64,000 nucleotides of DNA. Source: Camelus ferus. Taxonomy: Eukaryota. This document shows positions 1 to 51,326 of this stretch, piece after piece. The stretch spans positions 32,552,001 through 32,616,000 of the forward strand of contig NC_045696.1 in the NCBI RefSeq assembly GCF_009834535.1, written 5' to 3'. Numbering within the stretch: position 1 is the first letter of the stretch; each line of letters starts with the position of its first letter. Made by a program: the position numbers and the translations under genes. The notes beneath the pieces are model-generated. The model had not been told where the DNA came from, searched no databases, and saw nothing but the letters and a program-made list of their open reading frames with translations.

Positions 1-373
1 GGTGAATGATAATTGTGCATTGCCAGTGCCTGTGTATACTTCTTCACACATCTATTTCGATACTTGATCAGGTCAAATGATAAATATGTAAGGAGAATCT
101 TAATGTTCTGCCACTTCTGCCTTTAAAAAATATATGCTGTGTCCAGATAGTACATGGTATATAGAGTGATCAGTTACAAAGCTCACAACCACCTGATAAA
201 TACACGTACTCATTGAAGTTTAGTTTTTGAAAAATGTGTACAGAAACAACACAATGAATGGATGACTATGTTCTGGAGTCTACAAGCAGACAAAAATCTC
301 TCCTGTATTTTTCTAATTTTCTTAGAGTACATTATGTCCATGCATAATGTGTTCCATGTAAATGAAAACTGAG

Positions 374-610
374 CAATGATTTTCAAACTGCAGAATGTGA
401 CCTATTAGTAAGTTATGTTAAAAGTTTGTTTATGACTAGCATTAAAAAACAGAAGAGAATAAAAAGATACAAGTATATGAATTATAGGTTTATAAAACTT
501 CTATTTTAGTTAAATATATACACGTATGGATTTATATGTTCAAATGTATTCATAGGGTTACATCAGACAATGCATTTCTTTACTGTGGGTTGGAAAGACT
601 GTAAAAATTG
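374..610. mobile_element. Degenerate hAT-Charlie-type DNA transposon/MITE remnant
   Basis: Begins CAATGATTTTCAAACTGCAG..GTGACCTATTAGT, resembling a Charlie-type terminus (CAGTGGTTTTCAAACT), and ends ...AAAAATTG. Family not determined. Confidence 0.4.
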
Positions 611-693
611 CAGGTGTAGTGATCAGGAGAAGAATCAATGATTAACATAGTAACAACAAATAAACTAAATTTGAGAAGATTAAGACCTTAGAA

Positions 694-875
694 CAGGGTT
701 CTTATTTCTGCTGTTTATTTAGAACTACCTGAGATGTTTTGAAACATACAGATGAATGGTCTTTAATCAAATCAGTAAGTCCCAGCACTTGATGTGGGCA
801 ATATAGGTGTGTTTTGTTTTTTATTTTAGAGCTCTCCAGGTGATTAGGACATGAAGCCAAGTTCCAGAACCTCTG
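694..875. mobile_element. MER5A-like hAT-Charlie MITE
   Basis: CAGGGTTCTT... terminus, internal GCTCTCCAGGTGATT..GAAGCCAAGTTCCAGAACCTCTG end, similar 8-bp flanks CCTTAGAA / CCATAGAG. Confidence 0.6.
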
Positions 876-3800
876 CCATAGAGTAGCAATCATGATAATT
901 AAAAAAAAATTCATTTTGCTTTCACATTGTGATTTTTGACAGTTGGCATATTAGGATTTGATAATATTTAGACACCAAAAACTACAGATTAATAAATGAA
1001 AAGGGAAACTTGGGACAAGTATAAAAATTGTTTAGGGGCTATTCATATATTTTGAATACATTACATTCTATGCTTATTCAAATTTTTACTTTTGTACCAG
1101 TCAATGAGAAGAGTATCATAGAGACAAATAGTACAGTTAATTGATCAACACTGGAAGTACTGGAAACATTAAAAATGTTGTAATTGATTTTCCATCCTCT
1201 TTCAAGTAATTATATGTTAGCTCTAGTTAAACAGTAATTAAAGAGAAATAGTTGGTGGGGTTTATTTATTTGTGTATTTACGTATTGTGTGTCTTTTAAG
1301 TTTGTAATTTCATCTTTTTTTTTTTTCACCTGAAGGTCAGCTTTTCTCTTGTGAATCCTCAGAGCTTTATAGTCTCTTCTCGTTTGCAGTCACATCTGCT
1401 CTATTTTTTCACTCACGATGAATAACAAAATTTAATTGTAATGATTATGAAATGGTTAGCATTAGTGTAGAGATGTGCAGAGATTGAGGGCACTGAATAC
1501 CTGTAAGAAGTGCTCTGAGCCTTTGCATTTGTCCCTCGCCATCACTACTTGGTACCTGTTGTTTCGTACAGGTGGCTCAGGTTTGTAGAGAAGAGCAGCA
1601 TACACTTAGTGAATGAGTTGATTTGGACTTCAGTGTTCCTTTTTTTACTGGTGCTGTTTGTTTTGTTCTGCTTAATTTAGCTGCTCTTCAGCGTGAAACT
1701 CTCAAAGTCATTGGAAAGTCAAATTCAGAAAAGATCTAAATGATATAAACAAGTTTGACCAGCCCAAGTGATGTGAATAAGTTTGACATCTATTTAGAAT
1801 GTGTGAGCAGGACCAGGATATGCAAGGCTAACTTTCCAGCCTTAGTACTGATCATTTTCAGTAACAGAAGGTCAGTCCTCAGTAACACATGTGGAAATGT
1901 AAAATGAATACAGCACAAATGTGAAAGGAAATAATTTCAAAGTTTGTGTATTCATTTGACAAAATTCTGATATTCTGTAGTCATGTTCAGGCTTTGTGCT
2001 AACTATACTTAACCTGATATATACTTCAAGTAAAATCAATTGCCAATTTTCTAAATAAATATTGAGTTGCTAGTTTGAATAATTGTTGCAAAACAATTCA
2101 TCTCTTTTATTGAAGATAAAATTATCTTTGTAGAATTAAATGCTAAAAATAAGTGTTGTCTAACATTTTAAAAAATAACAGATCCCAGACCAGGTATCTC
2201 ATCATTCAAGCTCTTTACCTTAAAACACTTTCTCAGATAATTTAACCAAATCAAATATAAAAACCATTAATTATAATAGCCAGATAAATTTATGAAGGTA
2301 GCCAAGGTGATTTTTTCAAAGCTTTTGTCTGAATCATGCTATGCAGCTTCAGTTGTAAACCTATTTATTATTGTGAAAAAGACTCATGTTAGCTTTTTTA
2401 AATAGAACAAGGTGAATAGTATCTTTATAATGAAGAATTCGTTTATTCAGATCTGATTAATATCCACAGGATTTGTCACTTTACAAGTCTAACTCCTCCA
2501 TTAGACCATATTCTCCTTCAAGGAAAAGAATCGTAAACAAACTATTTGTCTTCATAGCTCCAGGGCCTCCCATGATGTTTAAATGAGTGAAAGAAAAGAG
2601 GAACTTAGTCCTTCAGTCTCCTCAGCAATATGGTATTTATGGATTTTTATATTCAGTACCTTCTCATGATCTCAAAAATGTAACAGAAAAGTCACTAAGT
2701 ATATCTGTCTTTCAGGGATAATTTAACCAATAAGCAATTTTACATTCATGACTACATCCAGATAAACAATAACAAATAAAATTTTATAACATTTTTAAAA
2801 AAAATGCAATTATTGTTTAGCCAAGTTAATAGGAGTTATAGACATGTATAGAATTTTGCACTAGGTATTCGTTCTTGCTCATTTTTACACAGTGGTGAGT
2901 CTCTTTTATCAATAGTAATGATTTCTAACATTTCCCACCATGTCTCAGTGTAAAAGATCTTTGGAGATTATCTGATCCATATGCCTTCAATATGGATCAG
3001 GAAATAAAGTGCAAAGAGCCGAAATCCTGGAGTTGTCTTTGTGGCCACTCCTGAAATAGACCTCCGCAAGCACATATTGTTTCTTGTATTACCTCTTTTT
3101 GCTATTTATGACATATTCTTTCACTTGATGCTCACAATATCATGAGTTGGTAAACAAGGTATATGAGATAATTTTTTCCAAAATTAGCTAATTTCAGTGG
3201 TCAGCAATCTTTGTCCCTTTACAGAAATAATTTGCTGATCCTTGATTAATACTATGTTGTAAATAATGTGTATTCTATAAAGAGAAAGCCAGTTGAGCTG
3301 TGCATTAAATTGTTAACAAATATTTTTTCAAAAACAGTCTTTAAAAACATGCTTTAAAAAGACACATCAGTTTTCAGCTTACAGTTACTTGGGAGGGTTC
3401 TAGAACCTAAGATGGGGTGACAGTAAAGAATTCAGAGTGAAAAGAAAGTTGTCTGGAATGGAAATTCAAAAGGAAGGATTAGGATGATGGGGACTGACTG
3501 AGGCAGGGAGACTGGTACCTCTCTGTTTGGGACTACAAGTTCAGTGGGAGTTATGAAACTGCAACATGAAAAATAGTGTGGTCTTCTTTTGAACTTAATA
3601 AGGGGAGGCTTAAGTCCAGCAGTTGGGAACTTGTGAGATGTTAATACTTGAGAGCAAATCAGTAACAGAGCTGCTGAGAAGAGTGAATTAGGAATAAAGA
3701 ACCTGATTCTGAAATCCTGTCAGCGTACTCTGTGTCTGTGTGTTAAGCTGTGCGTGCACACGTTTCCCAGAACGAGTGGCTAGAGGTCACTGTCCAGATG

Positions 3801-4083
3801 AAGCCAAATTATATATGTCACAAGTATGCTATGAATATATTAAATCGTATTTGGATTGATGTTTCTATAAAGAATGTATTTATTTTGAAGAGAAAAAGGG
3901 ACAATAATGTCTGAAATGAAGTGAAAAGACCATTAGGCTAGAAATCAAGATCTGTAGGATCCTGGACACATCACTCAACCTCTCTGGACATTACTGTTTT
4001 TCACATTTAATATGTAGACCATGTCTAAGTTCCTTCCAGTCTTATGTTCATGTATCTATCCAAACAACCAGGAACTGGGCGGC

Positions 4084-4096
4084 GGGGGGGGGGGGG
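4084..4096 (+). repeat. Poly-G run (13 G)
   Basis: Read directly from the sequence. Confidence 0.9.
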
Positions 4097-6739
4097 ATGT
4101 GTTATATAAATAAACCCTAATAAGAGAAAGTAGTAATCACCATGAACTACTGGCACAAGGTTTCCGTAAGAGTCAGACAGCAGAGTATGTTGGAAACATG
4201 CTTGACGATATCATTGTCACTGTCATGGTCTAAACAACATTGCAGTCCATATCCTAGGAGGCCACTGTGGTGTGGTTAGGAAATTGATATACTATTTAGC
4301 TTTCCCCAGTGACTGTATTTAAAAAATAAATACAGACACAATTAGATGACATGATTAAAGGGTTCAAGTTACATTAATTGTTTTCAGTTTTCAAATATTA
4401 TACCCCCATGTCTGTAATTTATAAGAATTTATTTGTGGCTTTCATCTATGAAGGTAGAGATAGTCTACTGCTTTAAAAGTTATAGTTTATTTGCAATCTC
4501 ATATTTTCAAGAGGAACATTATGGAACATGTGACAATAATAAATAATTACATTAAAAATGAAATAAAACCAGTCTAGAGATAGGTTTCTGATTTTGAACA
4601 ATAGCCTGACACAGTTGAAATTATATTGTGTTCTGAACAGTCTAGACATATCAGAAATATTAAAATTAAAATGCTCTATCCATGTCATGTATCACTAATA
4701 AAAAAGTATAGTCTTTAGCTCATTATGAAATAATGAGTGAATTATATTATAATCTCACAGAATACCAGTCTTCCTATAATTATGGTAATAATAATTTGGA
4801 ATAAGCCTTTTCAAAAGAATCTAGGACAGTCTACAGATAATAAACAAAAAATAAAGCAATCTGGGCTCACTGCCCAGATTATCACAAATATATATAATGT
4901 AGCCAAGAAAGATAATAAATACTTAATACGTGTAACTGACTCTATGAGGAAGAAAAAAGAAGGAACAGTAATTGGTCGAAGCCTTGATCAAAAATTGTTA
5001 CCTGTCATGAATCTCTTTTGATAAAAACCTATGTGTGTCTGTATATAGGGGTTTTTCTTGTTTGTTTGTTTGTTGTAGAATTCTTCACAAGTCCCTTTGA
5101 GATAAATAAAAGAAAACAAAGGAAGCTACCTGTCCTTTCAACATATTAAATATAGAAGAAATATCACCCAAGGAAACTGCGGTTTACCTAAAATGTTCAA
5201 ATCTGCCTTGACTACGTTAATTAGAAAGTCAGTATACTCCAATTAGAAATTCTACCTCTCCATACAGATATTATATGAAATGAATTACATTTTTATTTGT
5301 AAATAGCAACCTGGGATTATTGTTTTCCATGCCTAAAATTGTCCCCAAATTACTCCCTAATGTCCTATTGATGTGGCATTCCAGTTTATTGAATGACAAA
5401 ACTCTATTGCTTTATTTCCAGTTTAATTTTAAAAAGTTTAATGAAATTTTGTTCTTTGGGCTTAACAAAGTGAAAGCTAAATAACCAAATAAACAAAGAA
5501 TACGTTGTGTGTTTATTACTCAGTTCTCTATTCAGTTCTCCTGGATTTTATTGGGCAATAGCTTAACTACCAATTTTTAGTTTTTCTGTGTGATAGTTCA
5601 AATATTCTTTCATCCATCTATTTATTCATTCTACAAAATACATTTTGAGTTTCTGCTAAACGTCTAACACTGTGCTAGATGTTAGAGTCAAAAAGTAAAA
5701 TAGGATTTATCATCTCATGGCACTCAAAAAAAAAATGGCTACAAAAATAAAGAATCCAAAGAGAGCTGATAAACTGTGGTCTGAAATAAGGAATATAAAA
5801 CACAGATTCCTAAGGAAAATATGAGAGGAAGCAACTAATCATTTCACAAATTTAATTATATTTGAGTTTTAAATATATCTTTTTTCATTTATGACCCCTA
5901 ATAAGATAGTGATACTTCACACATGAAACATTTGGAATGCTGAACCTCATAGTTCAGGTGATGTAAAGGACTTCTGCTCAAACCAGGTCTCCCCTATAAG
6001 AAGGGACTTCGGTGCCCTACGAATTTGGGCTCCTTTTTCAAAATAGAAAAATGTAAACTTTTACCAATCATGAATACTCTTATTTTGGAAGATCCCAGCA
6101 GTTTATTTAGCTTCACCTCTAGGTTTGCTAATATGAAGTAGAAAAAATATGACACTTCTAGTCTTACTGTAGGCCTATAATTTGCTTTTAATTCATAGGC
6201 ATATGACATTTAAAATGTACATGCCATGTAACATGTAATATGATGTGTAATTCATAGACATAGCATAACTCTTTAGACACTTTATTATTTCTACTTCATT
6301 ATTACTAAACCTGATGTTAAACACTCCTGCATTCTAAAAATTCCCAGGCGGGATAGTATGATTGATACTGTAGTAGAACCATGAACAGAGCACTAATTGT
6401 AAGGATGTTTCTAAGATCTTTGGGGAAGTAATACAATTCCACAAAACTTTTGTTGTTATTTTTTATTTGAATCATTGTATGCTGATGGCAGAAAAGAAAT
6501 GACAAAAATACAAGTCTTCAACTCAATAAAAATGTACTTGATGCCAAGTCATCTGTAGAGGCTCTTTTGGCTATGTGGCTTTGGAAACAAATTATTCCAT
6601 TTGATTTTGTCACAACCATAAAGATCTCTGGGGTGCAAAGGAAAACAGATTGGAATGAGGGTTGTGATTGTTTATTCGCTATGTCTTATTTTGTCCACTG
6701 CAAACTTCAGAGAAATATTCTTTTGAAATTAATAGCATG

Positions 6740-6810
6740 TTTTTGTTTCTTTCTGTTTTAGGTAAGCACATAAATCATTCCTGGTATAATCAGACTGCAT
6801 CAAGGTAAAA
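6740..6810 (+). other. Candidate recursive splice site (3'ss immediately followed by a 5'ss motif) with a 43-nt RS-exon at 6762-6804
   Basis: TTTTTGTTTCTTTCTGTTTTAG|GTAAGC at 6740-6767, possible branch TTAAT at 6729-6733, downstream donor CAAG|GTAAAA at 6801-6810. Confidence 0.65.
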
Positions 6811-8163
6811 ATGATAAAATTATATTTCGTAACACTAATCAGCATGTAAATATATATGATGTTTTAGGAAAAATGGTTAAAGACATGTTTCTTTTTGAAA
6901 CTAAAGACTGAAAATACCTGTAGAAAATCTATATGTTGGGTTTTTCTGTTTTATTCTGATGTTAGTACTGTAAACTTGAAGTATTTGAAATTGTGTGTCA
7001 TATTGAGTATTAGAAATATGTATTAACTACTTTAAGACATAAGAAATGCCCTTAACATTTAATTAATATATTATAGGAAATATTTGTTCCATATCCAAAA
7101 TTTTTTATTTCAAAATACAGTAGAGTGCTTATAATTCCTTTGGGTTTAGCTTGCTACTTTGACTTTTTGCACTGAAGGCCCGAAGAATTCAATTTTGTAT
7201 CCTGTACAGTATATGCAGGCATTTTTAGGGACACATAACTATATTTAGTTCCTTTTAGGACAAAGACAACACATTGATGATCCAGGGACCTACATGGCTT
7301 TAGAATTTATTACTTTTGAGCCTGGTAACACTGGAAGGGGAGGTGGAGACTCACTCATTATCTCAGAAAAGGAGAAAGTGCTTTTAATTAGTAGAAGAGC
7401 CATCATCATTCATTATAGTGGTTTGAAAGTAAATAATGTTCTAATTGGTACAGCAAGGGTGTTCTTCCTCCAAACAAACATGTGAACCTAGTCTTTAGTA
7501 AGTAGAGAGGCTAAATTTTACTTGCATTTTTAAATAGTCCTGCTGAAGGTATGGTTTAATTTTCTGAATGTAATTATTTGATGCTGATTTTAAATAGAGA
7601 TATTATATCAATGTCAATATGATACAAAGGATCCTTTATAACAGGGGACTGAGAAGAGAGAAGGCTTATTTGACTGTTGTTTTACTCTCTTTTTACCTTT
7701 TCTTTAATGTGAGTCATTGGGACTCTGTTAAAGTAAGTGCTTTTTGGTTTTAATTAGGAACTAATATTTAGTGAATTTAATTGAGACCTCTTTTTGTTAG
7801 CATTGATAAACGTCTATGATATAAGAAAGTATGGGCAACTTCCTAAATGCTTCATAGCTGAGTATTTCTCTGGAAAGATTTAGTAATATATGTTGAAATG
7901 AGTATTGTAGTTATATTTGAAACCATTTATTTTAATTCTAAAAGTTATTTTCATTCTGTCAAAATGTATCTGTTAGGGAGAAAAAGTTCAAAATTTTTGT
8001 CAGTGTGACCACATTTTATAATGATAATGAAATAGAGATAATTTTATAGAAATTTATAATCAAAACTACCCTGTGACCTCAAAACAAAATATTTTGACTT
8101 ACTCTTCCATATTCAAAAACCTGAAATTTAAGTGAAGATTATTATGTTTTTGATTAAATGAAT

Positions 8164-9843
8164 TTTTTTTACATTTTTTATTGATTTATAATCATTTTAC
8201 AATGTTGTGTCAAATTCCAGTGTTCAGCACAATTTTTCAGTCATTCATGGACATATACACACTCATTGTCACATTTTTTTCTCTGTGAGTTATCATAACA
8301 TTTTGTGTATATTTCCCTGTGCTATACAGTGTAATCTTGTTTATCTATTCTACAATTTTGAAATCCCAGTCTTTCCTTCCCACCCTCCACCCCCCTGGTA
8401 ACCACAAGTCTGTATTCTCTGTCTGTGAGTCTATTTCTGTCCTGTATTTACGCTTTGTTTTTGTTTGTTTGTTTTTGTTTTTGTTTTTTAGATTCCACAT
8501 ATGAGCGATCTCATATGGTATTTTTCTTTCTCTTTCTGGCTTACTTCACTTAGAATGATATTCTCCAGGAGCATCCATGTTGCTGCAAATGGCATTATGT
8601 TGTCGGTTTTTATGGCTGAGTAGTATTCCATTGTATAAATATACCACCTCTTCTTTATCCAGTCACCTGTTGATGGACATTTAGGCTGTTTCCATGTTTT
8701 GCCTATTGTAAATAGTGCTGCTATGAACATTGGGGTGCAGGTGTCATCCTGAAGTAGATTTCCTTCTGGATATAAGCCCAGGAGTGGGATTCCTGGGTCA
8801 TATGGTAAGTCTATTCCTAGTCTTTTGAGGAATCTCCACACTGTTTTCCATAGTGGCTGCACCAAACTGCATTCCCACCAGCAGTGTAGGAGGGTTCCCC
8901 TTTCCCAACAGCCTCTCCAGCATTTGTCATTTGTGGATTTTTGAATGACGGCCATTCTGACTGGTGTGAGGTGATACCTCATTGTAGTTTTGATTTGCAT
9001 TTCTCTGATAATTAGTGATATTGAGCATTTTTTCATGTGCTTTTTGATCATTTGTATGTCTTCCTTGGAGAATTGCTTGTTTAGGACTTCTGCCCATTTT
9101 TGGATTGGGTTGTTTATTTTTTTCTTATTGAGTCGTATGAGCTGCTTATATATTCTGGAGATTAAGCCTTTGTCGGTTTCACTTGCAAAAATTTTCTCCC
9201 ATTCCGTAGGTTTTCTTCTTGTTTTAATTCTGGTTTCCTTTGCTGTGCAGAAGCTTGTAAGTTTCATTAGGTCCCATTTGTTTATTCTGCTTTTATTTCT
9301 TCTAGGAGAAAATTTTTGAAATGTATGTCAGATAATGTTTTGCCTATGTTTTCCTCTAGGAGGTTTATTGTATCTTGTCTTATGTTTAAGTCTTTAATCC
9401 ATTTTGAGTTGATTTTTGTATATGGTGTAAGGGAGTGTTCTAGCTTCATTGTTTTACATGCTGCTGTCCAGTTTTCCCAACACCATTTGCTGAAGAGACT
9501 GTCTTTATTCCATTGTATATTCTTGCCTCCTTTGTCGAAGATGAGTTGACCAAAAGTTTGTGGGTTCATTTCTGGGCTCTCTATTCTGTTCCTTTGGTCT
9601 ATATGTCTGTTTTGGTACCAATACCATGCTGTCTTGATGACTATAGCTCTATAGTATTGTCTGAGGTCTGGGAGAGTTATTCCTCCAGCCTCTTTCTTTC
9701 TCTTCAGTAATGCTTTGGCAATTCTAGGTCTTTGATGGTTCCATATAAATTGTATTATAATTTGTTCTAGTTCTGTGAAATATGTCCTGGGTAATTTGAT
9801 AGGAATTGCATTAAATCTGTAGATTGCCTTGGGCAGTGTGACC
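8164..9843 (-). mobile_element. Young 5'-truncated LINE-1 (ORF2 C-terminus plus 3'UTR) with a 13-bp target-site duplication
   Basis: ORFs 8488-9267 and 9282-9569 translate to L1 ORF2p ([40 protein letters not shown]). T-rich tail at 8164. TGATTAAATGAAT duplicated at 8151-8163 and 9844-9856. Confidence 0.95.
8488..9569 (-). pseudogene. L1 ORF2p C-terminal fragment (Cys-rich CCHC region), frameshifted near 9282
   Basis: Two consecutive ORF2-like reading frames (95 aa and 259 aa) separated by a frameshift at ...EIKAE*/NKWDL. No endonuclease or RT core present. Confidence 0.9.
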
Positions 9844-12800
9844 TGATTAAATGAATCTTAAACAGAAAACATTTTAAAATTTGATTGATGAAAAATATTT
9901 ATTAAATTAGCATAGTTGTCTACCATAGAATTAGAAATATACTTTAGTCTTTCTCTGGTAACTGAATTATGCTATGTATCAGGGTCCATTGCAGTAAATG
10001 GCCTAATAGAACATTGTGAGACGAAAGATACATGTATCGGTGCTTTTACCCAAACAAATAAAAAAATGTAAGTACAAGCAAAAAAAAAAAAAATTCTTAG
10101 CCGTCTCATACTTAGCTCATTTTATTTGACATTTTCTCTGAAATAAAAAGCAGAACAAACTTTTTGGCATTGTTAGTTGGATTCCATATAATTGATGCTT
10201 TACTTAATGTTAGTATTTCAGACTATATGATATATGTTCTTTGTCCATTGGAGGCTATACTTTGAATGTGAACACCCAACAATGACATTATGAGTCTAAG
10301 ATTGATAGCTATTTGATTTAGCAACATCTGTTGTTGTTTGATGTACTCCAAGCAGATGCTCTTCCTTGAAATTCAACATGCAATTTGATTTATTCTTATG
10401 ACATGTAACCTCAACAGAAGAATACTATTGCTATTTATGCACAGTTATTATAATTAACAATTGTATGTGTCTTTGGTCAAGTGAATGTCTGTAGATGGGG
10501 TCAAACATCATTAACTTTAATAAGGACAACAATGGGCAAACACTTTGAATCACTTACTCCATAAACTGGCGTAGAGTTCTTTTATGTTTCAGGGCATCTA
10601 GAGTCATTTTTTCAATTAGTGATTCACTCTTTTAATACTCTTGGAGAGTTAATGAAACACAATAACGTATGTTATCAGAATGTTCCTTTCTGTGTTTCTC
10701 GTTGTATTTCAAACCTGTCACATTATACAGAGTTGTAATGAGAAAAATATCAAGAGACAGACACTACTGTTTTTTGGATTCTCTATGCAGGTCTTGTAAT
10801 ATGCTGCAACACAATAAAAACCAATGTAATTGTAACTGAATTACACTATTTCATAGTTTATATGAGGACACACAGGGATTTAGGATAAATATGAGAGTGA
10901 TCATGCTGAGGATTAGAGAGGTCTGATCAGGGGTTTTCTAGGCAGGAAAAAACAATCTATAAGCTTAAGTGAAAGTGTGTTTGTCCTAGGAAAACTTGGA
11001 AAATTATATAATACCATAATAGTGATTATATGTATTATAATTCTAAGGAGATCTGATAACTTGTAATGGAATATGAGTCCGATTCCCCTTTTCTGAGGAA
11101 GTCTCTTGCTCAGTGTTAACAGTCCAGTGATATCTTGTGACCTTTTATATGCAAATATGAACAATTTGGGGCTATCACAGTCTCTCATGCATTGCTCCTT
11201 AAAGGGACATTCTTAATTTCTTTTATAGTCTCAGTTTTATTTTAACCTCCATTACCTGTATTATCTTCTTTGAAGCTTGAAATTAACTTTTCTTTCTTCA
11301 CCATCTTATCCTTTTCTATTTTGGTAAGCAAAGATTTTACTTTTCCACTAAATTCTAGGGGGTTTCATGCAACATAGACATGATTAATTTAATATGGTAC
11401 AGTGCATCATTATTACATTATCCCATTAATCACATTCACTGAAAGAGAAGTATATCCTTTTCTATGGAGATCATTCAGAGATGTGCTGTCCTTTTGCACA
11501 TGGAAGCAAAACTAATGATACTGTAATAGTAGAATATACACTTCGTCGTATTTACTTGATAATAAAAGCTTTTGCACCATCTCAACTAGCTTCTTATTAA
11601 CTCGGCCTTTTGTGATCTATAGATAAAAATCTATTAAGAGACTGACCTGGAAATCAAAGCCGTGACTTTAGTCTATTTAGAATGGTACTCTAAACAATTA
11701 AGCTAACCAGCCTTTTCTAGGTCATAATTTAGGAGAAATAACAGGTGAGATCAGATAACAAAGCTAACATTACCTTTTGGATTTTCTTTTTCTACCTAAG
11801 TGTTTCTTTGGGATAGGTTGAATATGTCATCCCATCCTTAAAGTTAAATGCATTGTTCTTAAAATGTACTCTCATCCCTGCTCAGTTATGAGGCAATGAC
11901 AATGCGTATCTCCTTATTCTAAAAATAAAATAAGGCAATTTAGCCTTTGTATTCTTATAATTAGCAAATGGTGGAAAGTTAAATTTTTAAATGACATAAA
12001 CCTTCATCCTTATTATGGAAAGGAAATCAAATATAATTCTAATAAAATGAGCAAGTGTTTTAAAATTTCACATGGGCAGTGGATATACATTCATAAAAAT
12101 GTTAATAATATCCACGATCATCCTGTTATCATTGCCACAGTCCTCAAATGGTTGAAGCTCTTATTTGAATAAGCAACTGATGGCCAAATTTAGCCTATCC
12201 TGTTGGATGCTGCCTGAGTGGAGATGCTGTGTCCCATTCCCCTTTGTGATGCCCCTTTACCTGCCATAATGGTTGTTACATTTTAGGTTCCTGTGAATAC
12301 TTTTGTTGTTGTTGTTGACCTATTGCTTTACAGGGAAAAACTCTATATTGACCACATGCCAGATTTCACACAGTATAACCATAATGGAATTTAATGAATT
12401 ATTTATTACAAATTATTTATTTTAAACTGCTTCTTAAAAGAGGCAAGGAAAGGTAGGTTAGTAGATTGGTAGATAGGTACTTACTTACCTACCTACATAC
12501 ATAGATGTATAGAAAGATTAAAAAAGAATGACTTCATTTAACAACAATTGTTCATTGTCATAGTCTTTTAGATTACCAAAGATTCTGGAAATATAACCAT
12601 TAGTATCACATATTAGTTTCCTTAATAAGCAGTAAATATTCAGTGTGCAACCATTTTTTCTCTTTCAGAACCTATGCCAGGTTCTTGAAATGTATAAAGA
12701 AGGCAGCATGAAATCTGTTCTCAAAAAAGTCATTTTCATTATCTAATTGTAGAACAAAACATAAATATATGAAGTATTTTATTTATAAAAGGAAATATAA

Positions 12801-14219
12801 GAAACATGGTCCAATTGGACAGTAACCTCTAAATGTAAAAAATACTTTGTTTTAACTGTCATACTTCCAAAATTGTAACTTTGAACTACTTCTATTAGTA
12901 GTTTAGTGTTTGACATTAGGAAGTGAATAAATGCATAGGTGAATTAAGTGAAAATTATTTGTTTAGTACCATTTGCAGTATATAACTTAGACCTATTCTT
13001 CTTCCTTCATTTTTTTCTAACTTGCGTTGGATAACACTTATTTTCCGTTATTCCTTTGACGGTTTTGTCATTATTACTCATGCATAATTCTCCAAAAATA
13101 TACTACTGTGTAAACAACTAGACCACTCTGGTTATTGTAAGTTCAAAAGAATGCTCTTTTAATTCTCCTATAGTATCATAAGCATGGATATACAAATACC
13201 TAGTCTCTTAGCTCAAAAAATGTTGATATTATTATGTTAAAGGTTTTAAAAAAATAATATTCACATTTGAATTTCCATTTTCCCTTGTTTCTACCTAAAA
13301 CAATTTAGAAAAGCTTCTCATAATATTCTTGATGCTACTGCTACTTGCAGTTAAATTTAATACTTAGAGCTTTGGAGCTATTTCAAATATATCTACTGTT
13401 TAAATTTTAGAACACTGACTATTGAATATTAAGAAATTATTTTGAATACATTCTGGGATTCATCTACTGAAACTGTAAAAATAACATTGTTTCTCAACTT
13501 ATATGCTTCTCCATTGAACAAACAAACAAACAAACAAATTCTGGTATAAATCATTTTGCCATATGCCAAAACTCTGGCATAAATAAGCCAAGTGCCATTA
13601 TCAGTGGGAATCTGCTTGAATCCATATGTTCATTTTCAACTGAAAACATACTCTCTGTGTTCCAGCCTAAATTATGCAGTCATTTTACATCAGGAATTTT
13701 GGGCTGTTAATATCACTGTCATGATTTTAATATAATGACAACAGAAAATAGTAGTTATCCTTGAGTCTAAATTTCAGGCTTTTTGACTTTTAGTTGGCTC
13801 TTTTAACTGCACAGTTCTACAGATAGTATCAAGGATGCTTTCCAGACACTTTTCACTTAGTAAAACTATTTAATAACAACTAGAATAATAAAAAAGAAAT
13901 TATTTACAAAGCAATGTATATATAACATGCACCCCATTTTCAAACAATGTGAAGACTAATGTCATAGAGCCAAATACCATTTCTCACTTAAAAACACCAT
14001 CCATTACTCACTGAGCCACATACTATTTCTAATGCAAGGTCTGATTCAACCACTGAATCAGGTTAGTTGTCCTGGGGGGAGGGAAGGATGGCAGTAGGCG
14101 TATGATGAATACAGTGTTTGTTTTTGCTTCTATTTGACAGCACTCTTTTAATTATAGTGAATATACTGTCTTCTTAATTATTTTAAACGATAAATGCATA
14201 GCTATAAGACATAGTTCAG

Positions 14220-14550
14220 TGAAGTTCTCTGCCACATTATTACAAGGATCAACTTTTCTGCAGTTTTCCATAATGTGTTCTTCATTTCATCTTGAGACCT
14301 CAACAAAACATCTTTCACGTCCCTGTTTCTACCAACATTCTAATTTAAACAGTCTAGGTTTTTTTTTTTTTTTTTCCTATTCAATGCTTCAGAGTTCTTT
14401 CTGCATGTACCCATCAGCAAATTCCAAAGTCACTTCTAGATTTTTAGGTATTTGTTACAACACACCTCACTTTTAGGTATCAATATTTGTATTAGTCTCC
14501 TATGACTATTGTAACAAATGACCACAGGCTTGTGGCTTAAACCAATATAC
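14220..14550 (-). mobile_element. MaLR (MLT1-type) LTR/internal junction fragment
   Basis: CCAAAGTCACTTCTAGATTTTTAGGTATTTGTTACAACACACCTCACTTTTAGGTATCAAT (internal start, reverse) joined to TGTATTAGT..GTAACAAATGACCACAGG..GGCTTAAAC (LTR end). Confidence 0.7.
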
Positions 14551-16169
14551 ATACTTGATCATTTATTTACCAAAATATTTTTGTAAGAATGTATATAAAT
14601 ACATGAATCACTTTATTTCGTGTATATAATGCAAATTTTGAATTTTCAGAGCCAACAAATAAGGAAATTAATGTTTTTAAGCACCCATGTACTGTGACTT
14701 AGAAACTTTATTTGCATTGTTTCAGTAAGTTCTTGCAGTTATCTTAGGTACATTAAATAATCTCAGTTTCTACTTACATCATGATTGTGAAGAGTTGGAC
14801 TTTTGGATATTTGCACAGATTCGTTTTCTTTTAGACACTCATCGGCCATTTGTAGCTTAGGTCAGATAAGAAAAATAATACAAATTAGTTACCTTAATAA
14901 TTTCCTTTAAATAAATACATCAAAAAAATCAGAATGATTTTCAGTACATTTAAACTAGAAATTTTAAGATATACCAACTAGCTTGTGATTTTTAAAAAAA
15001 TAACATTTTCTTCCATATCATTGTAGTTGTAGATTGAGAGGTGAATAGCATTATTGTCCACTGCAAAAAAGTTTTTGGTGTGGTTTGTTAATATGCTAAG
15101 CTCTCATAGTTCAGTTAGATTGGACATTTCCAGGTTCCAGTTGGAATATCTGCTATTCCACTTAAAAAAAATGCTGTGTAACGTAACTTATCTTCAAAAA
15201 GGATTAACTGTCACTATACAGGTACACGACATACCATGTAATCTCCCCGGTTAACTCATAAACTCATTCAGTGATGTACTTTTTCCCAATGTAATCTGTT
15301 TTCTATTAGCATTGTGAAAATGAAAATAATTGTCTAGAAAAAGCCAATATATTCACTCTTCCTCAAAATATCTAGAAAATTGAAGAAAAGTGAATACTTT
15401 AGGACAGGTTTCTGCATGCTTCTTTGTATTCTCTGCTTAACTTTAGATGTATCACTGGTATATATATATTTTTTTTTCTTAACTTTAGGAAAATCCACTA
15501 TAAAACTTAACTAAAACAACTATAATAAATGGCATCTTTTTGAGGAATTAACTTTTTTCCCAAAAACTGCATATCCATGTATGAGAGCTTTCTAGATCTT
15601 GGCTATCTGTATCCACTTTTTTACGCTCTGCGTTATCAGGTACTTATGGGTATGTGCTTATTAACACCATTTGCGTTTAAGTGTGATGATTTGGGTCACT
15701 CTTTTATGTTTGCATCTTTGTTTATTGAAACAAAGCACTCTTTAGGATTTGTTTGTTTTAACAGTTGTAAGCTCATAATTTTCACTGAAAGTAATTCCTT
15801 TCTGTAAATGAATATTTTGAAAATGAAAAGTAATTAAAGATTAACAAAGGTAAGCAAATGGACTTTTAAAGCTCCTTAATTATTTAAAGCACAATGAGTA
15901 TTTAAGATAACCAATCTTCTGCAAAAAATTAAAAACCCTGTAGCTAATTTGCATATTCAGTGAGTCCTGGAATTTCATTCACATTTGACAGGTGAGGGAA
16001 TTGTGGCAGAGAGTTTAAGTGATTTATGGCAAGTCGTTAAAAAAAAAAAAAAGAGCATGTTAGGGTTAGGGTTATTTTTGCCACACATTTTACTTTTACA
16101 GTTTGTAAACCTCACACTATGTTGTTCTCATTTCTGTTCAAAAACTCACTTATCTCTTCTCCCCAGCAC

Positions 16170-16430
16170 TCTCTTCTGAGAACTATGGCTGCCTTGGGAG
16201 TCAGCCAGGCTCCTCCTGGGTTTCCCGTCCCTGCAGCGAAATGGAAATTATCTCGATACAGTGAGCTGGAGTATGTCAACGGCTTACCTCATTTGTCCAT
16301 CTTCAGGGCTCACTCTCTTTTATCTCTTGTCTGATAAACAATATTTTGCAAACTGCTACTTCATATATTTCGTTTGGCGCAGTAGGAGAGTAAATCTGGC
16401 CCTTGTTACTGCATTTTGGCCCTCTAAAGT
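16170..16430 (-). mobile_element. Old L1M-type 5'-end fragment
   Basis: AAACTGCTACTTCATATATTT...GGAGAGTAAATCTGGCCCTTGTTACT..ATTTTGGCC resembles the reverse of ancient L1M 5' ends (from recall). Confidence 0.4.
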
Positions 16431-16444
16431 AAGTTGAGTAGACT

Positions 16445-16470
16445 ACACACACACACACGCACACACACAC
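16445..16470 (+). repeat. (CA)n microsatellite
   Basis: Read directly from the sequence. Confidence 0.9.
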
Positions 16471-16559
16471 TTAGCTCCTCAAATCCCAAGCCTTCTTGGA
16501 CTAAGAATTATGGAGGTACATTTAAAACAAAACAAAGATTTAATTCTGTGTGAGATATA

Positions 16560-16770
16560 ATAGGAAGAAACTGGACTTTGGAGTCTGATGACCTGGTTTA
16601 AAATCCAGGAATGTAGCTCTGTGAGACTCTGAACAAATGACATAGTCTATCTTAGACCCATTTTTGTTGCCTGAAAAACCAAATTAAAAATTCCAAGCTC
16701 ACAAGATTATATTGAAGACCAGAACACCAACCCGACTATTTAGCTCATAATAGAACTTCTAAAATGCTTG
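16560..16770 (+). mobile_element. MIR SINE relic
   Basis: CTGGACTTTGGAGTCTGATGACCTGGTTTAAAATCCAG..TAGCTCTGTGAGACTCTGAACAAATGAC, MIR core-like. Confidence 0.6.
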
Positions 16771-18094
16771 TTTTATTCTCCATTGAAATGGCTATGTTTC
16801 CGTATCAAGTTGCATAAATTTGAATGCTCAGTGTGTCAGAATACCAGTATGTATACTAAGTTACCATCTTAAAATTCTGTGAAAATAAATAACCATCCCA
16901 TTTTTATAGTTAAGGAGAAGGGATCTCCATAAAATAAGGTCGGATACACAAAATAAGTAAGCATTTCTTAAAGGATTTGAACCCAGTTCACTTTTCATAC
17001 AGATTTTTTCTACTTCTCTCTGCAGAGTTTAGCCTCTTTTTCATAAAATAATTTCCAAGAATGTTTTATTTTTTGAGATACAGATCTGTTAATACTAGGA
17101 TTTTCAAACACTCTTCACTAGCGTTTGTTATTTCACGAACTAAATATATCTCAAATTCCATAGTATCTATAGCTATGTACTGCTGCTTCCATAAACTCTG
17201 CGTTACAATAAATATTCCAAGTGTTTTTCTCAGTAAGTGAACTTAATTTTATACACAAAATTAATGTTACTGTTTTCCTTAAAATTCTGTTTTTGGCTCT
17301 CACACACCCAAAAGACTCTTTAGTTCAGTCCTGGAAAAATATCAAAATATATACCTGTAAGGCAGTAGCTTTCACTTTTTATAGTTTATGATGGAGCATG
17401 TTTTGGTTATTCTTTGTGATAAAATATAAATTTCTGTCATGTGTGCTATAAATTGACAATGTCAAAGAAGCAGCATTTTGGAGGCTTGACAAATGTCATA
17501 ACCACTTGTAAAATCACATGCTACGATTTTATGGCAGTATTTTAAAATGTTTTGCATTAGCTGCGCTCTGAATCATTATCAGGAGGATTACACTTTTTCC
17601 CTACTAGTAGTATTTTATGCTCTTTCAGTATGACATTTTCTTTTAGTCTATTTTGAGTTAATCTCCCTTTCTGTCAAATATTCTTTGGTAAAATGTTTTA
17701 ACCATCCATTTTTCATACATGATCTTTGAGACTGTATTTCTCAGTCTGATTCCATGTCTCCTGTCTGCACTTAGAGACACATGCCACTTCTGCCACAATT
17801 TCACAAGCACAGATATCCACCTTTTTATCACCTTTTAAATTTATACATTTTTCTAGTGACCAAACTCAGCGATCCGTCTTAGTACTTTTTCATGTTTCTT
17901 TCCGCAGGAACCTCTCCTGTCACCTTCCTCATGTAATCACTGCAGGTACACTAAGTGCCACATTATCAGTTTGCTGCTGTGCTCTCCCAGGACATTTTGG
18001 GAAAATCCTAGGGTAGCTTAGTTTTCGAGAAATAGTGGGGAACATCAGCACACCCACATATACATAGAGGAGTGTACACGTAAAATCTTTCTTT

Positions 18095-18400
18095 TTAGAG
18101 CTTGGTGCTTAAGAGTGCAGAATCTGGAGTAAGCTTCCTGGGTTCAAAACCGAGCTTTTTTTTTTTTTTTTTTTAATTGAAGTATCATTGATTTACAATA
18201 TTGTCTTAGTTTCAGGTGTACATCTCAGCTCTTTGAAAAATAATTGTGTGACATTCGACAAATTGCATAATCTTGTTGCGTTTCAATCTTCTTAGTAATA
18301 AAATGGGAGTGACTAACATACTTACCCATGAGTCTTGTTATGCTGAGAAGAGGGCCTGATATGTAATAGTTATCATGTAAATGTTAGCTATGACTACTGC
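18095..18400 (+). mobile_element. MIR SINE interrupted by a short L1 3' tail
   Basis: GGTGCTTAAGAGTGCAG..CCTGGGTTCAAA, then the insert, then TGTGTGACATTCGACAAATTGCATAATC..TAAAATGGGAG. Confidence 0.65.
18156..18222 (-). mobile_element. Extremely truncated L1 3' end (about 48 bp plus a 19-nt poly(A))
   Basis: T19-AATTGAAGTATCATTGATTTACAATATTGTCTTAGTTTCAGGTGTACA resembles the reverse complement of the L1 terminus at 52447-52512. Confidence 0.8.
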
Positions 18401-18628
18401 TACCGCTAATGCTACTACTATTACTATTGCATTGACTATGATAGTAAAAGTAAAGATTCATTTAGGCAAACGTATGCCAGAAACAAAATACTGATTTTGG
18501 TGATTCATGTCATGTACCTCTCCCACACTGTCCCCAAATCTAGAGCATTCCTAGTAATGTTATTTATTTCCTTCTTATCATAAACGTCTTCTCTCAAGGG
18601 AAACAATGAAATAAGGAAACAAAAACAT

Positions 18629-18722
18629 GGGGGCCAGGGAATAGCTCAGTGGTAGAGTACATGCTGAGCATGCACGAGGTCCTGGGTTCAATCCCCAGTA
18701 ACTCTATTAAAAAAATAAATAA
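18629..18722 (+). mobile_element. tRNA-Ala-derived SINE (camelid Vic-1 type)
   Basis: A box TAGCTCAGTGG, arm ATGCTGAGCATGCAC, B box GGTTCAATCCC, A-rich tail. Confidence 0.85.
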
Positions 18723-18901
18723 GTATGATTTCTTTAACCATGATTATAAATGATACTTACTTTCAAAAATTTTCTACTTATTTTTAACAGAAAGACAAAT
18801 AAGGGAAATAGTTAACTTTATTAAATAAATTTTTAAGCATTGCAAAACTTGACAGTATCAATTTTTTTTAATCATCCAACTACCCTGTCAAGAAAATACC
18901 A

Positions 18902-19263
18902 TGGGGGAAGTGAGGGGAAGGGATAGCTTAGGAGTTTGGGGTTAACAGATACACATTACTATATATAAAATGAAGAGCAAGGACCTACTATATAGCATAG
19001 GGAACTATATTCAGTTTCTATTATAAGAAATAGATTATAAATTATAAGATAATTAAATTTTTAAAATTTCTTTACAGATAAATTTAAGTTTATAAGATTA
19101 TAAATTTATAATTTTACAGATTACAAGAGCCATAATGGAAAAGAAACTGAAAAAAAAATGTGTATATATATATACATGTGTATAACTGAATCGCTTTGCT
19201 GTACACATGAAATTAACATTGTAAATTGACTACACGTCAATAAAAAATAAGAATTTTTAAAAA
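18902..19263 (+). mobile_element. L1 3'UTR fragment (artiodactyl-type) with an internal AT-rich expansion
   Basis: GGAGTTTGGGGTTAACAGATACACATTACTATATATAAAA..TATAGCATAGGGAACTATATTCA..AACTGAATCGCTTTGCTGTACAC, colinear with 52255-52512. Confidence 0.85.
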
Positions 19264-19999
19264 GTAAGGCCACTAGACTTTGCAAAAGAGTATTGTACCA
19301 TTTTACAAATAACGTTATTAAAGTTCATTAAAATAAATAGCTTGTTCAAGATCAGATATAAAGTAAGAGTTGGTGTTAATTATCAAGTCCTGTCTTTCTG
19401 GTTCTAGAGATAAAGAAATGAAATCTTAAGTCCAAATCTGGAATTTCTAATTGAGTAACATTCCATAACCAGCTGAATGGAATGAATAAAAGGGTGGATA
19501 CTATCTTAACTAAAATTATATGGGTTTCATAATCAAATTGGTATATGCTAAAAAAAAGAAGAAAAGAAAAAAAAATCATTACTGGGTGACCTTAGGAGGG
19601 TTCCTTGATATTCTTGAAACTCAGATTCCTCATTGTCAGTGACATGGGTATAAACACCCCCTCTTTGTGAGAATATTTTGAAAATGAAATGTCTACAGCT
19701 TTTCTGGCTCAGTATGTGTGTTTCCTTCTCTTTCCATTCAAGACCTAGCACTGATTTTTACATGTGAGCACTATTCAGTGGACATCCTTTCATTAAAATC
19801 ACAATTGCCTTGTAAGAGTAGCTCCTTAGTTTTCTTCTAGTTGGTCATTATTTTGATTCATTTATTTAGAATGATTTTTTTCCTTACAAGCTCATGACTA
19901 AATATGGTGTTACTTTCTTTATTTCAGAAAGTTGGTAAATGATTATAGTAGTTTTCAATCACCTCTGAAGATTAGAACTAAGAACCTGTAAAGAGGCTC

Positions 20000-20028
20000 G
20001 TGATGGTTGTGATGGTTGTGATGGTTGT
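20000..20028 (+). repeat. (GTGATGGTT)3 tandem repeat
   Basis: Read directly from the sequence. Confidence 0.9.
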
Positions 20029-22094: not shown

Positions 22095-22280
22095 CTATAC
22101 TGTTCAATACAGTAGCCACTGGCCACATGTAGTTATTTAAATTTGAATTTAAAATAACTAAAATAAAATGTATAACAAATTTGTTTCCTTCAGTGATACT
22201 GGCTCTATTTCAAGTCCTCAGTAGCCATAGGTAGATAGAGATTCATCCATCATCAGGGAAAGCGCTCTAGGACAGCCCCC
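22095..22280. mobile_element. MER3-like hAT-Charlie MITE
   Basis: CTGTTCAATACAGTAGCCACTGGCCACATGTAGTTATTTAAATTTGAATT..TTTCAAGTCCTCAGTAGCCA..CCATCATCAGGGAAAG..GGACAGC. Confidence 0.75.
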
Positions 22281-22290
22281 TCTTCGAGAC

Positions 22291-22514
22291 CATGTGTGGG
22301 CAAACCATGGCCTGTTAGTCAAATCCAGCACACCACCTGTTGTTATGAATTAAGTTTAACGGGCACACAGCCATGCCTGTTCGTTTAAGTGTTACGTGTG
22401 GCTGCTTTACTCCACAGAGGCAGTGTGGAGTGGTTGTGACAGATAACAGTGTCTCCCATGAATCTTAAAATATTTAGTTTCTGGCCTTTGGCAAAAGACG
22501 TCTGCTGAACTCTG
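22291..22514. mobile_element. MER58A-like hAT-Charlie MITE
   Basis: GGGCAAACCATGGCCTG..AAATCCAGC..CACACAGCCATGCCTGTTCGTTTA..TAAAATATTTA..CTGGCCTTT. 8-bp TSD-like flanks TTCGAGAC / ATCTAGAC. Confidence 0.8.
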
Positions 22515-25509: not shown

Positions 25510-25700
25510 TATGAAATAAGAACTCATCATGTGTGAGAGATTTAACATCATTTTACTCTAGCCTTATCATAACCTTTTAATTATAACATTTATATTCTAT
25601 GGTTGGGATAAATTTAGACTCAGATTTGATTCACATGGCAGTGGTCACAGGTAGTAAGTAGCAGTATCAAGATTTGAATCCAGATACCCATGACAAAAGC
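25510..25700 (-). mobile_element. MIR relic
   Basis: TTTTACTCTAGCCTTATCATAACC..GTGGTCACAGGTAGTAAGTAGCAG..AAGATTTGAATCCAG. Confidence 0.55.
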
Positions 25701-27369: not shown

Positions 27370-27760
27370 TTGTTTTCCCAAAGGAGAAATGAGAGAGGAA
27401 AATGAAATGGATTGAATAAGAGACGAGGATTAATTAAAGATGACCAATGTTTTTGACTTGAGCTTCTGGATGGATGCGAGTACCATTTTCTAAAATAGGA
27501 GAAAGTAGACAAGGTGAAGTTTAACTTACAGATGTTGGTGAAATTGGATAAAATCAAGAGTTCAACTTAGGAAATGTTAAGTTTGAATTGTCTCTGTGAC
27601 TTCAACGCAGAAATGTTACTTAGAAAGTTCAGTATCTGTCTAGAGTTAGAAAAGGAATATTACTAGAAATAAGGATGTCTGATTCGGAGAATAGTTACAG
27701 TTATCTCAAGAGAAAATAAAAGAAAGACCAGTGCCTTGGAGAAAGCCCTTGGGATCTTCA
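27370..27760 (-). mobile_element. L2 LINE relic
   Basis: GACTTGAGCTTCTGGATGGATG..CCATTTTCTAAAATAGG..ATCAAGAGTTCAACTTAGGAAATGTTAAGTTTGA, typical of L2 antisense. Confidence 0.65.

Positions 27761-50342: not shown

Positions 50343-51326
<984 letters not shown>

What the first reader, a model, noticed from the sequence alone, without database searches (positions are those of the whole stretch)
6740..6810. Textbook recursive-splicing site with a frameshifting 43-nt RS-exon
Seen: a 20-nt polypyrimidine tract ending TAG is followed directly by GTAAGC, so a strong acceptor is fused to a donor core. A second donor (AAG|GTAAAA) lies 43 nt downstream, in non-repetitive DNA. 43 is not a multiple of 3, and two of the three frames contain TAA. 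Established: this YAG|GTRAG plus cryptic RS-exon architecture is how recursive splicing works in very long vertebrate introns (described for CADM1, CADM2, ANK3, ROBO2, NTM, OPCML, HS6ST3 and PDE4D), with RS-exon inclusion usually triggering NMD. Inference: the window is inside a giant intron of a + strand gene that is removed stepwise. CADM2 intron 1 is my unverified guess for the host.
Basis: partly seen in the sequence, partly recalled or inferred. Interest (0 to 1): 0.75.

Follow-up and report, generated by a model that had tools for sequence, protein, structure and literature searches.

The report
Known CADM2 recursive splice site RS2

Summary
The motif is there exactly as described. An 18-of-20 pyrimidine tract lies at 6740-6759, followed by TAG|GTAAGC at 6759-6767. 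A second donor, AAG|GTAAAA, lies 43 nt on.

The motif alone is weak evidence: about 0.03 such sites per 64 kb are expected from the window's own motif counts. Orthology settles it.

- **Host gene.** The window is G000:C1:32552001-32616000 of a 2.09-Gb genome that earlier notes call camelid. It lies inside CADM2 on the + strand. Exon 1 ends 489,248 nt upstream. The first Ig exon starts 243,781 nt downstream and is 49/49 identical to PDB 3m45, "Cell adhesion molecule 2".
- **Match to mouse and human.** Published mouse Cadm2 RS2 primers and human aCADM2 RS-exon primers match only this spot. The mouse core AGGTAAGC and downstream donor AAGGTAAAA are identical. Mouse has 219 exon 1-to-RS2 junction reads.
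- **Second site.** The RS1 ortholog lies 249,771 nt upstream.
- **One difference.** The RS-exon is 43 nt here against 42 in human and mouse, so the frameshift is specific to this assembly or lineage.
- **Gap.** No RNA from this species could be examined.

The scan has noted recursive-site candidates in other genomes, none naming CADM2. Verdict: real, correctly read, already known.

The parts
1..64000 (+). Interior of the giant first intron of CADM2, transcribed left to right
   Evidence: The window is C1:32552001-32616000. CADM2 exon 1 ends at C1:32069513. The first Ig-domain exon is C1:32802543-32802692, on the + strand.
6729..6733 (+). Possible branch point TTAAT (A at 6732, 29 nt before the acceptor)
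   Evidence: Read. It matches the loose yUnAy consensus, which I recall rather than tested. Inference only.
6740..6759 (+). Polypyrimidine tract of the RS2 acceptor (18/20 pyrimidines)
   Evidence: The last 16 nt before AG are identical to the human aCADM2 primer sequence. The mouse tract is also 0.9 pyrimidine.
6760..6761 (+). AG of the recursive 3' splice site
   Evidence: The orthologous mouse site is chr16:67142935, with 219 exon 1-to-RS2 junction reads.
6762..6767 (+). GTAAGC, the intron side of the 5' splice site that is rebuilt once exon 1 (ending AAG) is joined here
   Evidence: The rebuilt 9-mer AAGGTAAGC equals the mouse r5'SS, published MaxEnt 10.22.
6762..6804 (+). 43-nt RS-exon (RE2 ortholog)
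   Evidence: Mouse RS2 RS-exon primers match at 6762-6784 (+, 3 mismatches) and 6781-6803 (-, 2 mismatches), and nowhere else in the window. 40 of 43 aligned columns are identical to the mouse exon, with one 1-nt gap.
6805..6810 (+). GTAAAA, the RS-exon's own weaker 5' splice site, used for exon definition
   Evidence: The 9-mer AAGGTAAAA is identical to the mouse Down 5'SS, published MaxEnt 8.38.

Best explanation
Window 6740-6810 is the camelid ortholog of RS2, the second recursive splice site in the first intron of CADM2.

Proposed mechanism, taken from the mouse and human work and inferred here:
1. The 43-nt RS-exon is recognised by exon definition, through the strong acceptor at 6761/6762 and its own donor at 6804/6805.
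2. The exon 1 donor, or the junction left after recursion at RS1, is spliced to 6762. This removes the upstream part of the intron.
3. The join AAG|GTAAGC rebuilds a 5' splice site stronger than the RS-exon's own AAG|GTAAAA.
4. The second step uses the rebuilt site and removes the RS-exon with the remaining ~244 kb.

With RS1, the 733-kb interval is removed in three pieces of about 240, 250 and 244 kb. If the RS-exon's own donor is used instead, the 43 nt stay in the mRNA. In this genome that shifts the frame and gives a TGA 44 nt into the next exon, which predicts nonsense-mediated decay.

Shown here: the sequence anatomy, the host gene and strand, and the orthology to the mouse and human sites. 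Inferred: that the site is used in camelid cells.
For: **Host gene and strand**
- The mouse exon primer TGAGCTGGATTTGACCACTG has its only exact match (1 of 22 hits at <=2 mismatches) at C1:32802644-32802663 on the - strand, as a reverse primer of a + strand gene should.
- The exon there encodes 49 residues that are 49/49 identical to PDB 3m45 'Cell adhesion molecule 2', E 1.9e-29. CADM3 scores 3e-13.
- The only CpG island in C1:32.0-32.2 Mb holds an ATG exon ending AAG|GTAATC. Four human main-CADM2 exon 1 primers align there in order: 20/20, 19/20, 23/24 and 21/24.

**Orthology of the site**
- The mouse Cadm2 RS2 record gives motif AGGTAAGC, RS exon 42 nt, r5'SS AAGGTAAGC (10.22) and Down 5'SS AAGGTAAAA (8.38) (PMC8797253 supplements).
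- The window has the same 8-mer and both 9-mers.
- The mouse RS-exon primers hit only this spot; 0 of 100 shuffles gave any match.
- The human aCADM2 RS-exon mutagenesis primers align at 42/47 and 43/48 columns (PMC6224609 mmc1).

**Position in the intron**
- The site is 489,248 nt after exon 1.
- The same distance is 477 kb in mouse and 552 kb in human (10.1101/2025.08.14.666599, Methods passage).

**Companion site**
- The RS1 ortholog is at C1:32308991-32309063. It reads CAG|GTGAGT, has a 73-nt exon and ends TGG|GTAAGT, as in mouse and human.

**Use in other species**
- Mouse has 219 up-junction and 22 down-junction reads, and RT-PCR detected the intermediates.
- Human neurons show saw-tooth coverage with RS2 as a waypoint.
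Against: - No RNA from this species was examined. The one read-laying run returned nothing, so use of the site in camelids rests on conservation.
- Conservation was tested only against published primers and short motifs from mouse and human, not against genome alignments.
- The RS-exon is 43 nt here against 42 in mouse and human. I could not check whether the extra G is real or an assembly error.
- The mouse exon 1 primer did not match at the CADM2 locus at <=2 mismatches: 0 of 24 hits lie there. It aligns there only at 16/17 columns with a gap.
- MaxEnt scores were not computed here. They are taken from the mouse paper for identical 9-mers. The 3' splice site was not scored.
- The Sibley et al. 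2015 paper that first described these sites is not held. I know it only through citing papers and recall.
Confidence: 0.9

Rival explanations
1. The element works mainly as an ordinary alternative cassette exon, the second exon of a rare CADM2 isoform driven by a minor internal promoter (the human 'aCADM2' isoform). Recursion would then be a side effect.
For: [quoted passage not shown]
- The aCADM2 reporter retains the RS-exon almost completely.
- Mouse has 22 down-junction reads from this RS-exon.
Against: - The two roles are not exclusive. The same papers show recursion from the main promoter: 219 up-junction reads from exon 1 in mouse and saw-tooth coverage in human.
- The human alternative first-exon primer has no match at <=3 mismatches in the window. 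It also has none on contig C1: 3 hits genome-wide, all on other contigs. An aCADM2-type first exon is therefore not shown in this genome.
- The rebuilt site with main exon 1 outscores the exon's own donor, 10.22 against 8.38.
Confidence: 0.07
2. The motif is a conserved-looking but unused sequence in this species: a chance or relict juxtaposition that the camelid spliceosome ignores.
For: - By the window's own motif frequencies, about 0.03 such sites per 64 kb arise by chance.
- No RNA evidence was obtained in this species.
- The 1-nt length change shows that the exon interior is free to drift.
Against: - All functional parts are kept at the orthologous place: the pyrimidine tract, AG|GTAAGC, and AAG|GTAAAA at 42-43 nt.
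- Exon 1 still ends AAG.
- The RS1 partner site is also intact.
- I take it that neutral intronic DNA would not keep these across mouse, human and camelid, which is inference.
Confidence: 0.03

Closest known systems
Mouse Cadm2 RS2 (mm10 chr16:67142935, RS exon chr16:67142893-67142934; PMC8797253, supplementary files read)
   Same: - Same gene and same intron.
- Same AGGTAAGC core.
- Same rebuilt 5'ss (AAGGTAAGC) and same downstream 5'ss (AAGGTAAAA).
- Pyrimidine tract of 0.9 in both.
- 40 of 43 aligned RS-exon columns are identical.
- Similar distance from exon 1: 477 kb against 489 kb.
   Different: - The RS-exon is 42 nt in mouse and 43 nt here, through one extra G.
- Read from exon 1, the mouse exon is in frame and stop-free. 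Here it shifts the frame.
- Use is shown by junction reads and RT-PCR in mouse. It is not tested here.
Human CADM2 RS2 / RE2 (hg38 chr3:85,511,858; Boone et al. preprint 10.1101/2025.08.14.666599, passages and sections 3, 10, 16 read) and the aCADM2/mCADM2 reporters of Blazquez et al. 2018 (PMC6224609, passages and mmc1 read)
   Same: - It is the second of two canonical recursive sites in CADM2 intron 1.
- The primer-borne human sequence aligns at 42/47 and 43/48 columns.
- Exon 1 ends CTACAAG|GTAATCCCC in both.
- RE1 is 73 nt in both.
   Different: - Human RE2 is 42 bp.
- Human has a minor promoter and alternative first exon that retains RE2. Its primer finds nothing in this genome's CADM2 region.
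- The human alternative 'exon 2', 214 kb after RS2, was not looked for here.
Vertebrate recursive splicing with cryptic RS-exons in long neuronal genes (Sibley et al. 2015, Nature 521:371; not held, known here through citing papers and recall)
   Same: - Deep position in a very long first intron of a long brain-expressed gene.
- Acceptor fused to a donor.
- Short RS-exon with a weaker donor of its own.
- Conservation across species.
   Different: None in kind: this is one of the founding examples, seen in another mammal.
Drosophila zero-nucleotide ratchet points (Ubx, kuz and others; recalled, and named in earlier scan notes)
   Same: Juxtaposed 3' and 5' splice sites that let a long intron be removed stepwise.
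   Different: Different genes and lineage. This site is not a member of that set.

Membership tests
Vertebrate recursive splice site with RS-exon (Sibley type) | Lies deep in a very long intron (>50 kb) of a long gene, on the gene's strand | tested here: met
   The site is 489,248 nt after CADM2 exon 1 and 243,781 nt before the first Ig exon. Both exons are on the + strand.
Vertebrate recursive splice site with RS-exon (Sibley type) | Polypyrimidine tract + YAG fused directly to GTRAG | tested here: met
   18/20 pyrimidines, then TAG|GTAAGC.
Vertebrate recursive splice site with RS-exon (Sibley type) | A second 5' splice site shortly downstream that defines an RS-exon | tested here: met
   AAG|GTAAAA lies 43 nt downstream. 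The 9-mer is identical in mouse.
Vertebrate recursive splice site with RS-exon (Sibley type) | The rebuilt 5' splice site outcompetes the RS-exon's own 5' splice site | tested here: inconclusive
   Exon 1 ends AAG, so the rebuilt site is AAGGTAAGC. The published MaxEnt scores for the identical 9-mers are 10.22 against 8.38. The scores were not recomputed here, and competition was not measured.
Vertebrate recursive splice site with RS-exon (Sibley type) | Conservation of the site in other vertebrates | tested here: met
   Mouse and human primer or motif sequences match only this spot. No genome alignment was available. One metagenome scan gave only a chance hit.
Vertebrate recursive splice site with RS-exon (Sibley type) | Junction reads from the upstream exon into the site, and saw-tooth intronic coverage | not testable with these tools
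   The single read-laying run returned nothing. This is shown for the mouse and human orthologs only.
Orthologs of CADM2 RS2 | Host gene is CADM2 | tested here: met
   The downstream exon is 49/49 identical to PDB 3m45 'Cell adhesion molecule 2'. Human main exon 1 primers match upstream. Flanking anchors on C1 are an Alpha-amylase_C exon at 29.50 Mb and Ephrin_lbd exons at 35.47 and 38.33 Mb. I read these as GBE1 and EPHA3/EPHA6; the names and gene order are recalled.
Orthologs of CADM2 RS2 | Second recursive site, downstream of an RS1 site with a 73-nt RS-exon | tested here: met
   The RS1 ortholog lies 249,771 nt upstream: CAG|GTGAGT, 73 nt, TGG|GTAAGT.
Orthologs of CADM2 RS2 | RS-exon of 42 nt | tested here: not met
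   It is 43 nt in this assembly, with one extra G relative to mouse. This is a length variant of the same exon and no reason to doubt orthology.
Poison (NMD-triggering) RS-exon | Inclusion introduces a premature stop codon | tested here: met
   Exon 1 + RS-exon + Ig exon reads through the RS-exon in its open frame, then hits TGA 44 nt into the Ig exon. Decay itself was not tested. The mouse exon keeps the frame.

The most novel reading that the evidence does not exclude
In the camelid lineage a single inserted G has turned the 42-nt RS2 exon into a 43-nt frameshifting poison exon. In mouse the 42-nt exon is frame-preserving and stop-free when read from exon 1. Leaky use of the RS-exon's own donor would therefore be cleared by NMD in camelids. 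In mouse it would instead yield a CADM2 protein with 14 extra residues after the signal peptide. That would be a lineage-specific change in the cost of imperfect recursion.
Probability: 0.12. Interest if true: 0.25.

Novelty: already known. Interest (0 to 1): 0.12.

Why it matters
CADM2 RS sites are among the founding examples of vertebrate recursive splicing. Deletions of the sister site RS1 have been linked to ADHD-type traits in a 2025 preprint.

Finding RS2 and RS1 intact in a camelid adds one more mammal to the conservation record. It also shows that a tool-less reader can recognise such a site, and even name the gene, from sequence alone.

It opens no new question. The only fresh detail is that the RS-exon's length, and hence its frameshifting nature, is not conserved. 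This fits the view that the exon serves splice-site definition and not coding.

Tried and rejected
1. **Pfam searches of the genome for CADM-type exons.** C2-set_2 gave no hit within 12 Mb of the window. I-set scored 150 of 1301 candidates, nearly all in one titin-like cluster. For a while I took this as evidence against CADM2. It was a false negative of exon-by-exon searching.
2. **Mouse exon 1 primer on the genome.** It gave 24 hits at <=2 mismatches, none at the locus. Exon 1 was found instead through the CpG island.
3. **Full-text search for a 19-nt stretch across the site.** 0 papers.
4. **Sibley et al. 2015 by PMC id and by DOI.** Not held.
5. **RNA evidence.** The look-up of sequencing runs listed 24 runs. 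On record as RNA were 4 contig runs from one study and 4 raw single-cell runs. The one read-laying run returned no data, so nothing can be said about expression, strand or junctions in this species. The word shares were never laid and are no evidence.
6. **Metagenome scan with a degenerate 23-nt pattern of the site.** It returned 1 locus (L033). The alignment shows it is unrelated, so it is a chance match.
7. **Human aCADM2 alternative first-exon primer.** 0 matches in the window. The 3 genome hits at 3 mismatches are all on other contigs.
8. **Full 49-nt human mutagenesis primer, ungapped, at <=3 mismatches.** 0 matches. The gapped alignment explains why.
9. **Earlier-findings look-ups.** By place (near) and by sequence they gave nothing.

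Full report
**Observation.**
- 6740-6759 is TTTTTGTTTCTTTCTGTTTT: 16 T, 2 C, 2 G.
- AG lies at 6760-6761 and GTAAGC at 6762-6767.
- AAG|GTAAAA follows, with its GT at 6805-6806, so 6762-6804 is a 43-nt unit.
- Frames 1 and 2 of that unit contain TAA and frame 3 is open.
- It is the only YAG|GTRAG preceded by at least 14/20 pyrimidines on either strand of the window.

**How far above chance.**
- Three hundred dinucleotide-preserving shuffles gave a mean of 0.003 sites per window at the observed stringency; 1 of 300 shuffles had one.
- A harder control multiplies the real counts. There are 8 (+) and 7 (-) pyrimidine-tract YAG sites, 8 and 10 AGGTRAG sites, and about 4000 AG per strand. This gives 0.016 and 0.017 per strand.
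- By my arithmetic that is of the order of a thousand chance sites in this genome. The motif earns a second look but proves nothing by itself.
- The DNA is single-copy: 1 match genome-wide for 6600-6900.

**Where the window lies.** The window is G000:C1:32552001-32616000, + strand, in a 2.09-Gb assembly of 2043 contigs.
- Earlier notes of this scan call the genome camelid. They place pericentrin, ADAR2, DSCAM, KCNE1/2 and SON in the first 10 Mb of the same contig. I did not check these notes and used them only as a lead. I recalled that human chromosomes 21 and 3 are joined in many mammals.
- Family searches of the genome gave anchors on C1: an Alpha-amylase_C exon at 29.50 Mb (-) and Ephrin_lbd exons at 35.47 and 38.33 Mb (+).
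- I read these as GBE1, EPHA3 and EPHA6. The names and the human gene order are recalled.
- Linear interpolation put the site near hg38 chr3:85.45 Mb, inside CADM2.

**The host gene.**
- The mouse "downstream-exon" RT-PCR primer for Cadm2 (PMC8797253, supplementary file 5) has one exact match in the genome, at C1:32802644-32802663 on the - strand. The other 21 hits have 2 mismatches.
- Around it is a 150-nt exon with a clean acceptor and donor. Its 49 residues are 49/49 identical to PDB 3m45, "Cell adhesion molecule 2" (E 1.9e-29). CADM3, CADM4 and CADM1 follow at 3e-13 or worse.
- Upstream, I fetched C1:32.0-32.2 Mb. It contains one CpG island, at 32,068,401-32,070,100: 13 passing 500-nt windows, all there.
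- In that island there is a single ATG exon ending in a phase-1 AAG|GT donor, at C1:32069453-32069513. It encodes MIWKRSAVLRFYSVCGLLLQ, with donor AAG|GTAATC.
- Four human "main CADM2" exon 1 primers from Blazquez et al. 2018 (PMC6224609, mmc1) align there in order, at 21/24, 19/20, 20/20 and 23/24. The last spans the exon end and the start of the intron.
- The gene therefore runs on the + strand. The site lies 489,248 nt after exon 1 and 243,781 nt before the first Ig exon.
- The human annotation used by Boone et al. has a small, weakly used alternative "exon 2" 214 kb after RS2. I did not look for it, so "733,029 nt" is the distance from exon 1 to the first Ig exon.

- motif AGGTAAGC
- 20 upstream nt at 0.9 pyrimidine
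- RS exon chr16:67142893-67142934 (42 nt)
- rebuilt 5'ss AAGGTAAGC (MaxEnt 10.22)
- downstream 5'ss AAGGTAAAA (8.38)
- 219 up-junction reads from the exon ending at chr16:67620171, and 22 down-junction reads

The window has the same 8-mer and, given that exon 1 ends AAG, the same two 9-mers.
- The two mouse RS2 RS-exon primers match only at 6762-6784 (+, 3 mismatches) and 6781-6803 (-, 2 mismatches). No match occurred in 100 shuffles.
- The camelid and mouse RS-exons share 40 of 43 aligned columns, with one 1-nt gap.
- The human aCADM2 RS-exon mutagenesis primers align at 42/47 and 43/48 columns over 6741-6793.
- One human difference is T for C at position +6 of the donor. I take this to be the authors' engineered change, since the primers are named after a raised RS-5ss score. 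That is inference.
- The distance from exon 1 is 489 kb here, 477 kb in mouse and 552 kb in human. The human coordinates are exon 1 end chr3:84,959,669 and RS2 exon start 85,511,858 (Boone et al. preprint, Methods passage).

**The partner site.** The mouse RS1 RS-exon primer finds C1:32309041-32309063 (+, 3 mismatches). This is one of 3 genome hits, and the reversed control pattern also gave 3.
- It is the only hit inside the gene.
- The sequence there is a pyrimidine tract, then CAG|GTGAGT, a 73-nt unit, then TGG|GTAAGT.
- This is the same core, length and downstream donor as mouse RS1 and the same length as human RE1.
- The interval from exon 1 to the Ig exon is thus cut into 239,477, 249,771 and 243,781 nt.

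**Mechanism.** The model below comes from the mouse and human work: passages of PMC6224609; sections 3, 10 and 16 of the Boone preprint; passages of PMC8797253. It is inferred, not shown, for this genome.
1. The short RS-exon is defined by its acceptor and its own donor.
2. Exon 1 is joined to 6762.
3. The junction AAG|GTAAGC forms a donor stronger than AAG|GTAAAA.
4. The second step removes the RS-exon and the rest of the intron.

If the exon's own donor wins, the 43 nt remain. From exon 1 the RS-exon is read in its one open frame. The +1 shift then gives TGA 44 nt into the Ig exon, which predicts NMD.

The frameshift is not a conserved feature.
- Human RE2 is 42 bp.
- Mouse RE2 is 42 nt. Read from exon 1 it gives 14 extra residues and no stop.
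- The extra G here may be a lineage-specific insertion or an assembly error. I could not check it.

In human, RS2 doubles as an alternative exon of a rare isoform from a minor promoter. The primer for that isoform's first exon finds nothing in the window or on C1, so that isoform is not shown here.

**What could not be done.** No RNA of this species was examined. The run search listed 24 runs, but the one read-laying run returned nothing. No vertebrate genome alignment is available in this tool set. A metagenome scan for host-derived orthologs gave one unrelated chance hit. Sibley et al. 2015 is not held, and bioRxiv supplements are closed.

**Verdict.** The element is the ortholog of a site described and dissected in human, mouse, rat and zebrafish CADM2. 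It is therefore already known. The scan has noted recursive-site candidates in other genomes (25 findings hold the words), none naming CADM2, and none resembles this stretch.

Noticed in passing
L034:1451-1523 (G000:C1:32308991-32309063), outside the window: This is the ortholog of CADM2 RS1. It has a pyrimidine tract, CAG|GTGAGT, a 73-nt RS-exon and TGG|GTAAGT, matching the mouse core and downstream donor and the human and mouse length.
   Followed up: partly
G000:C1:32069513-32802543: RS1 and RS2 cut the interval from exon 1 to the first Ig exon into three nearly equal pieces of 239,477, 249,771 and 243,781 nt. In human the first two pieces are 279 and 273 kb. Whether even spacing is selected was not examined.
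   Followed up: no
window 6780-6784: The RS-exon has one more G (CCTGG) than the mouse exon, making it 43 nt instead of the 42 reported for mouse and human. Real insertion or assembly error was not resolved.
   Followed up: partly
window 18636-18706 (+): Rfam tRNA match at 32 bits, just above the gathering score of 29. ARAGORN finds no tRNA there. It is probably a tRNA-derived repeat or pseudogene.
   Followed up: partly
window 31757-31816: Short tandem repeat: period 16, 3.6 copies, 90% matches.
   Followed up: no
window 8001-10000 and 58001-60000: Strong T-over-A strand asymmetry, with AT skew -0.284 and -0.252, against about 0 elsewhere. Cause not examined; an oriented repeat is possible.
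   Followed up: no
That is the length of human and mouse CADM2 RE2. My sequence look-up found no look-alike, so whether it is the same element in another animal is open.
   Followed up: no
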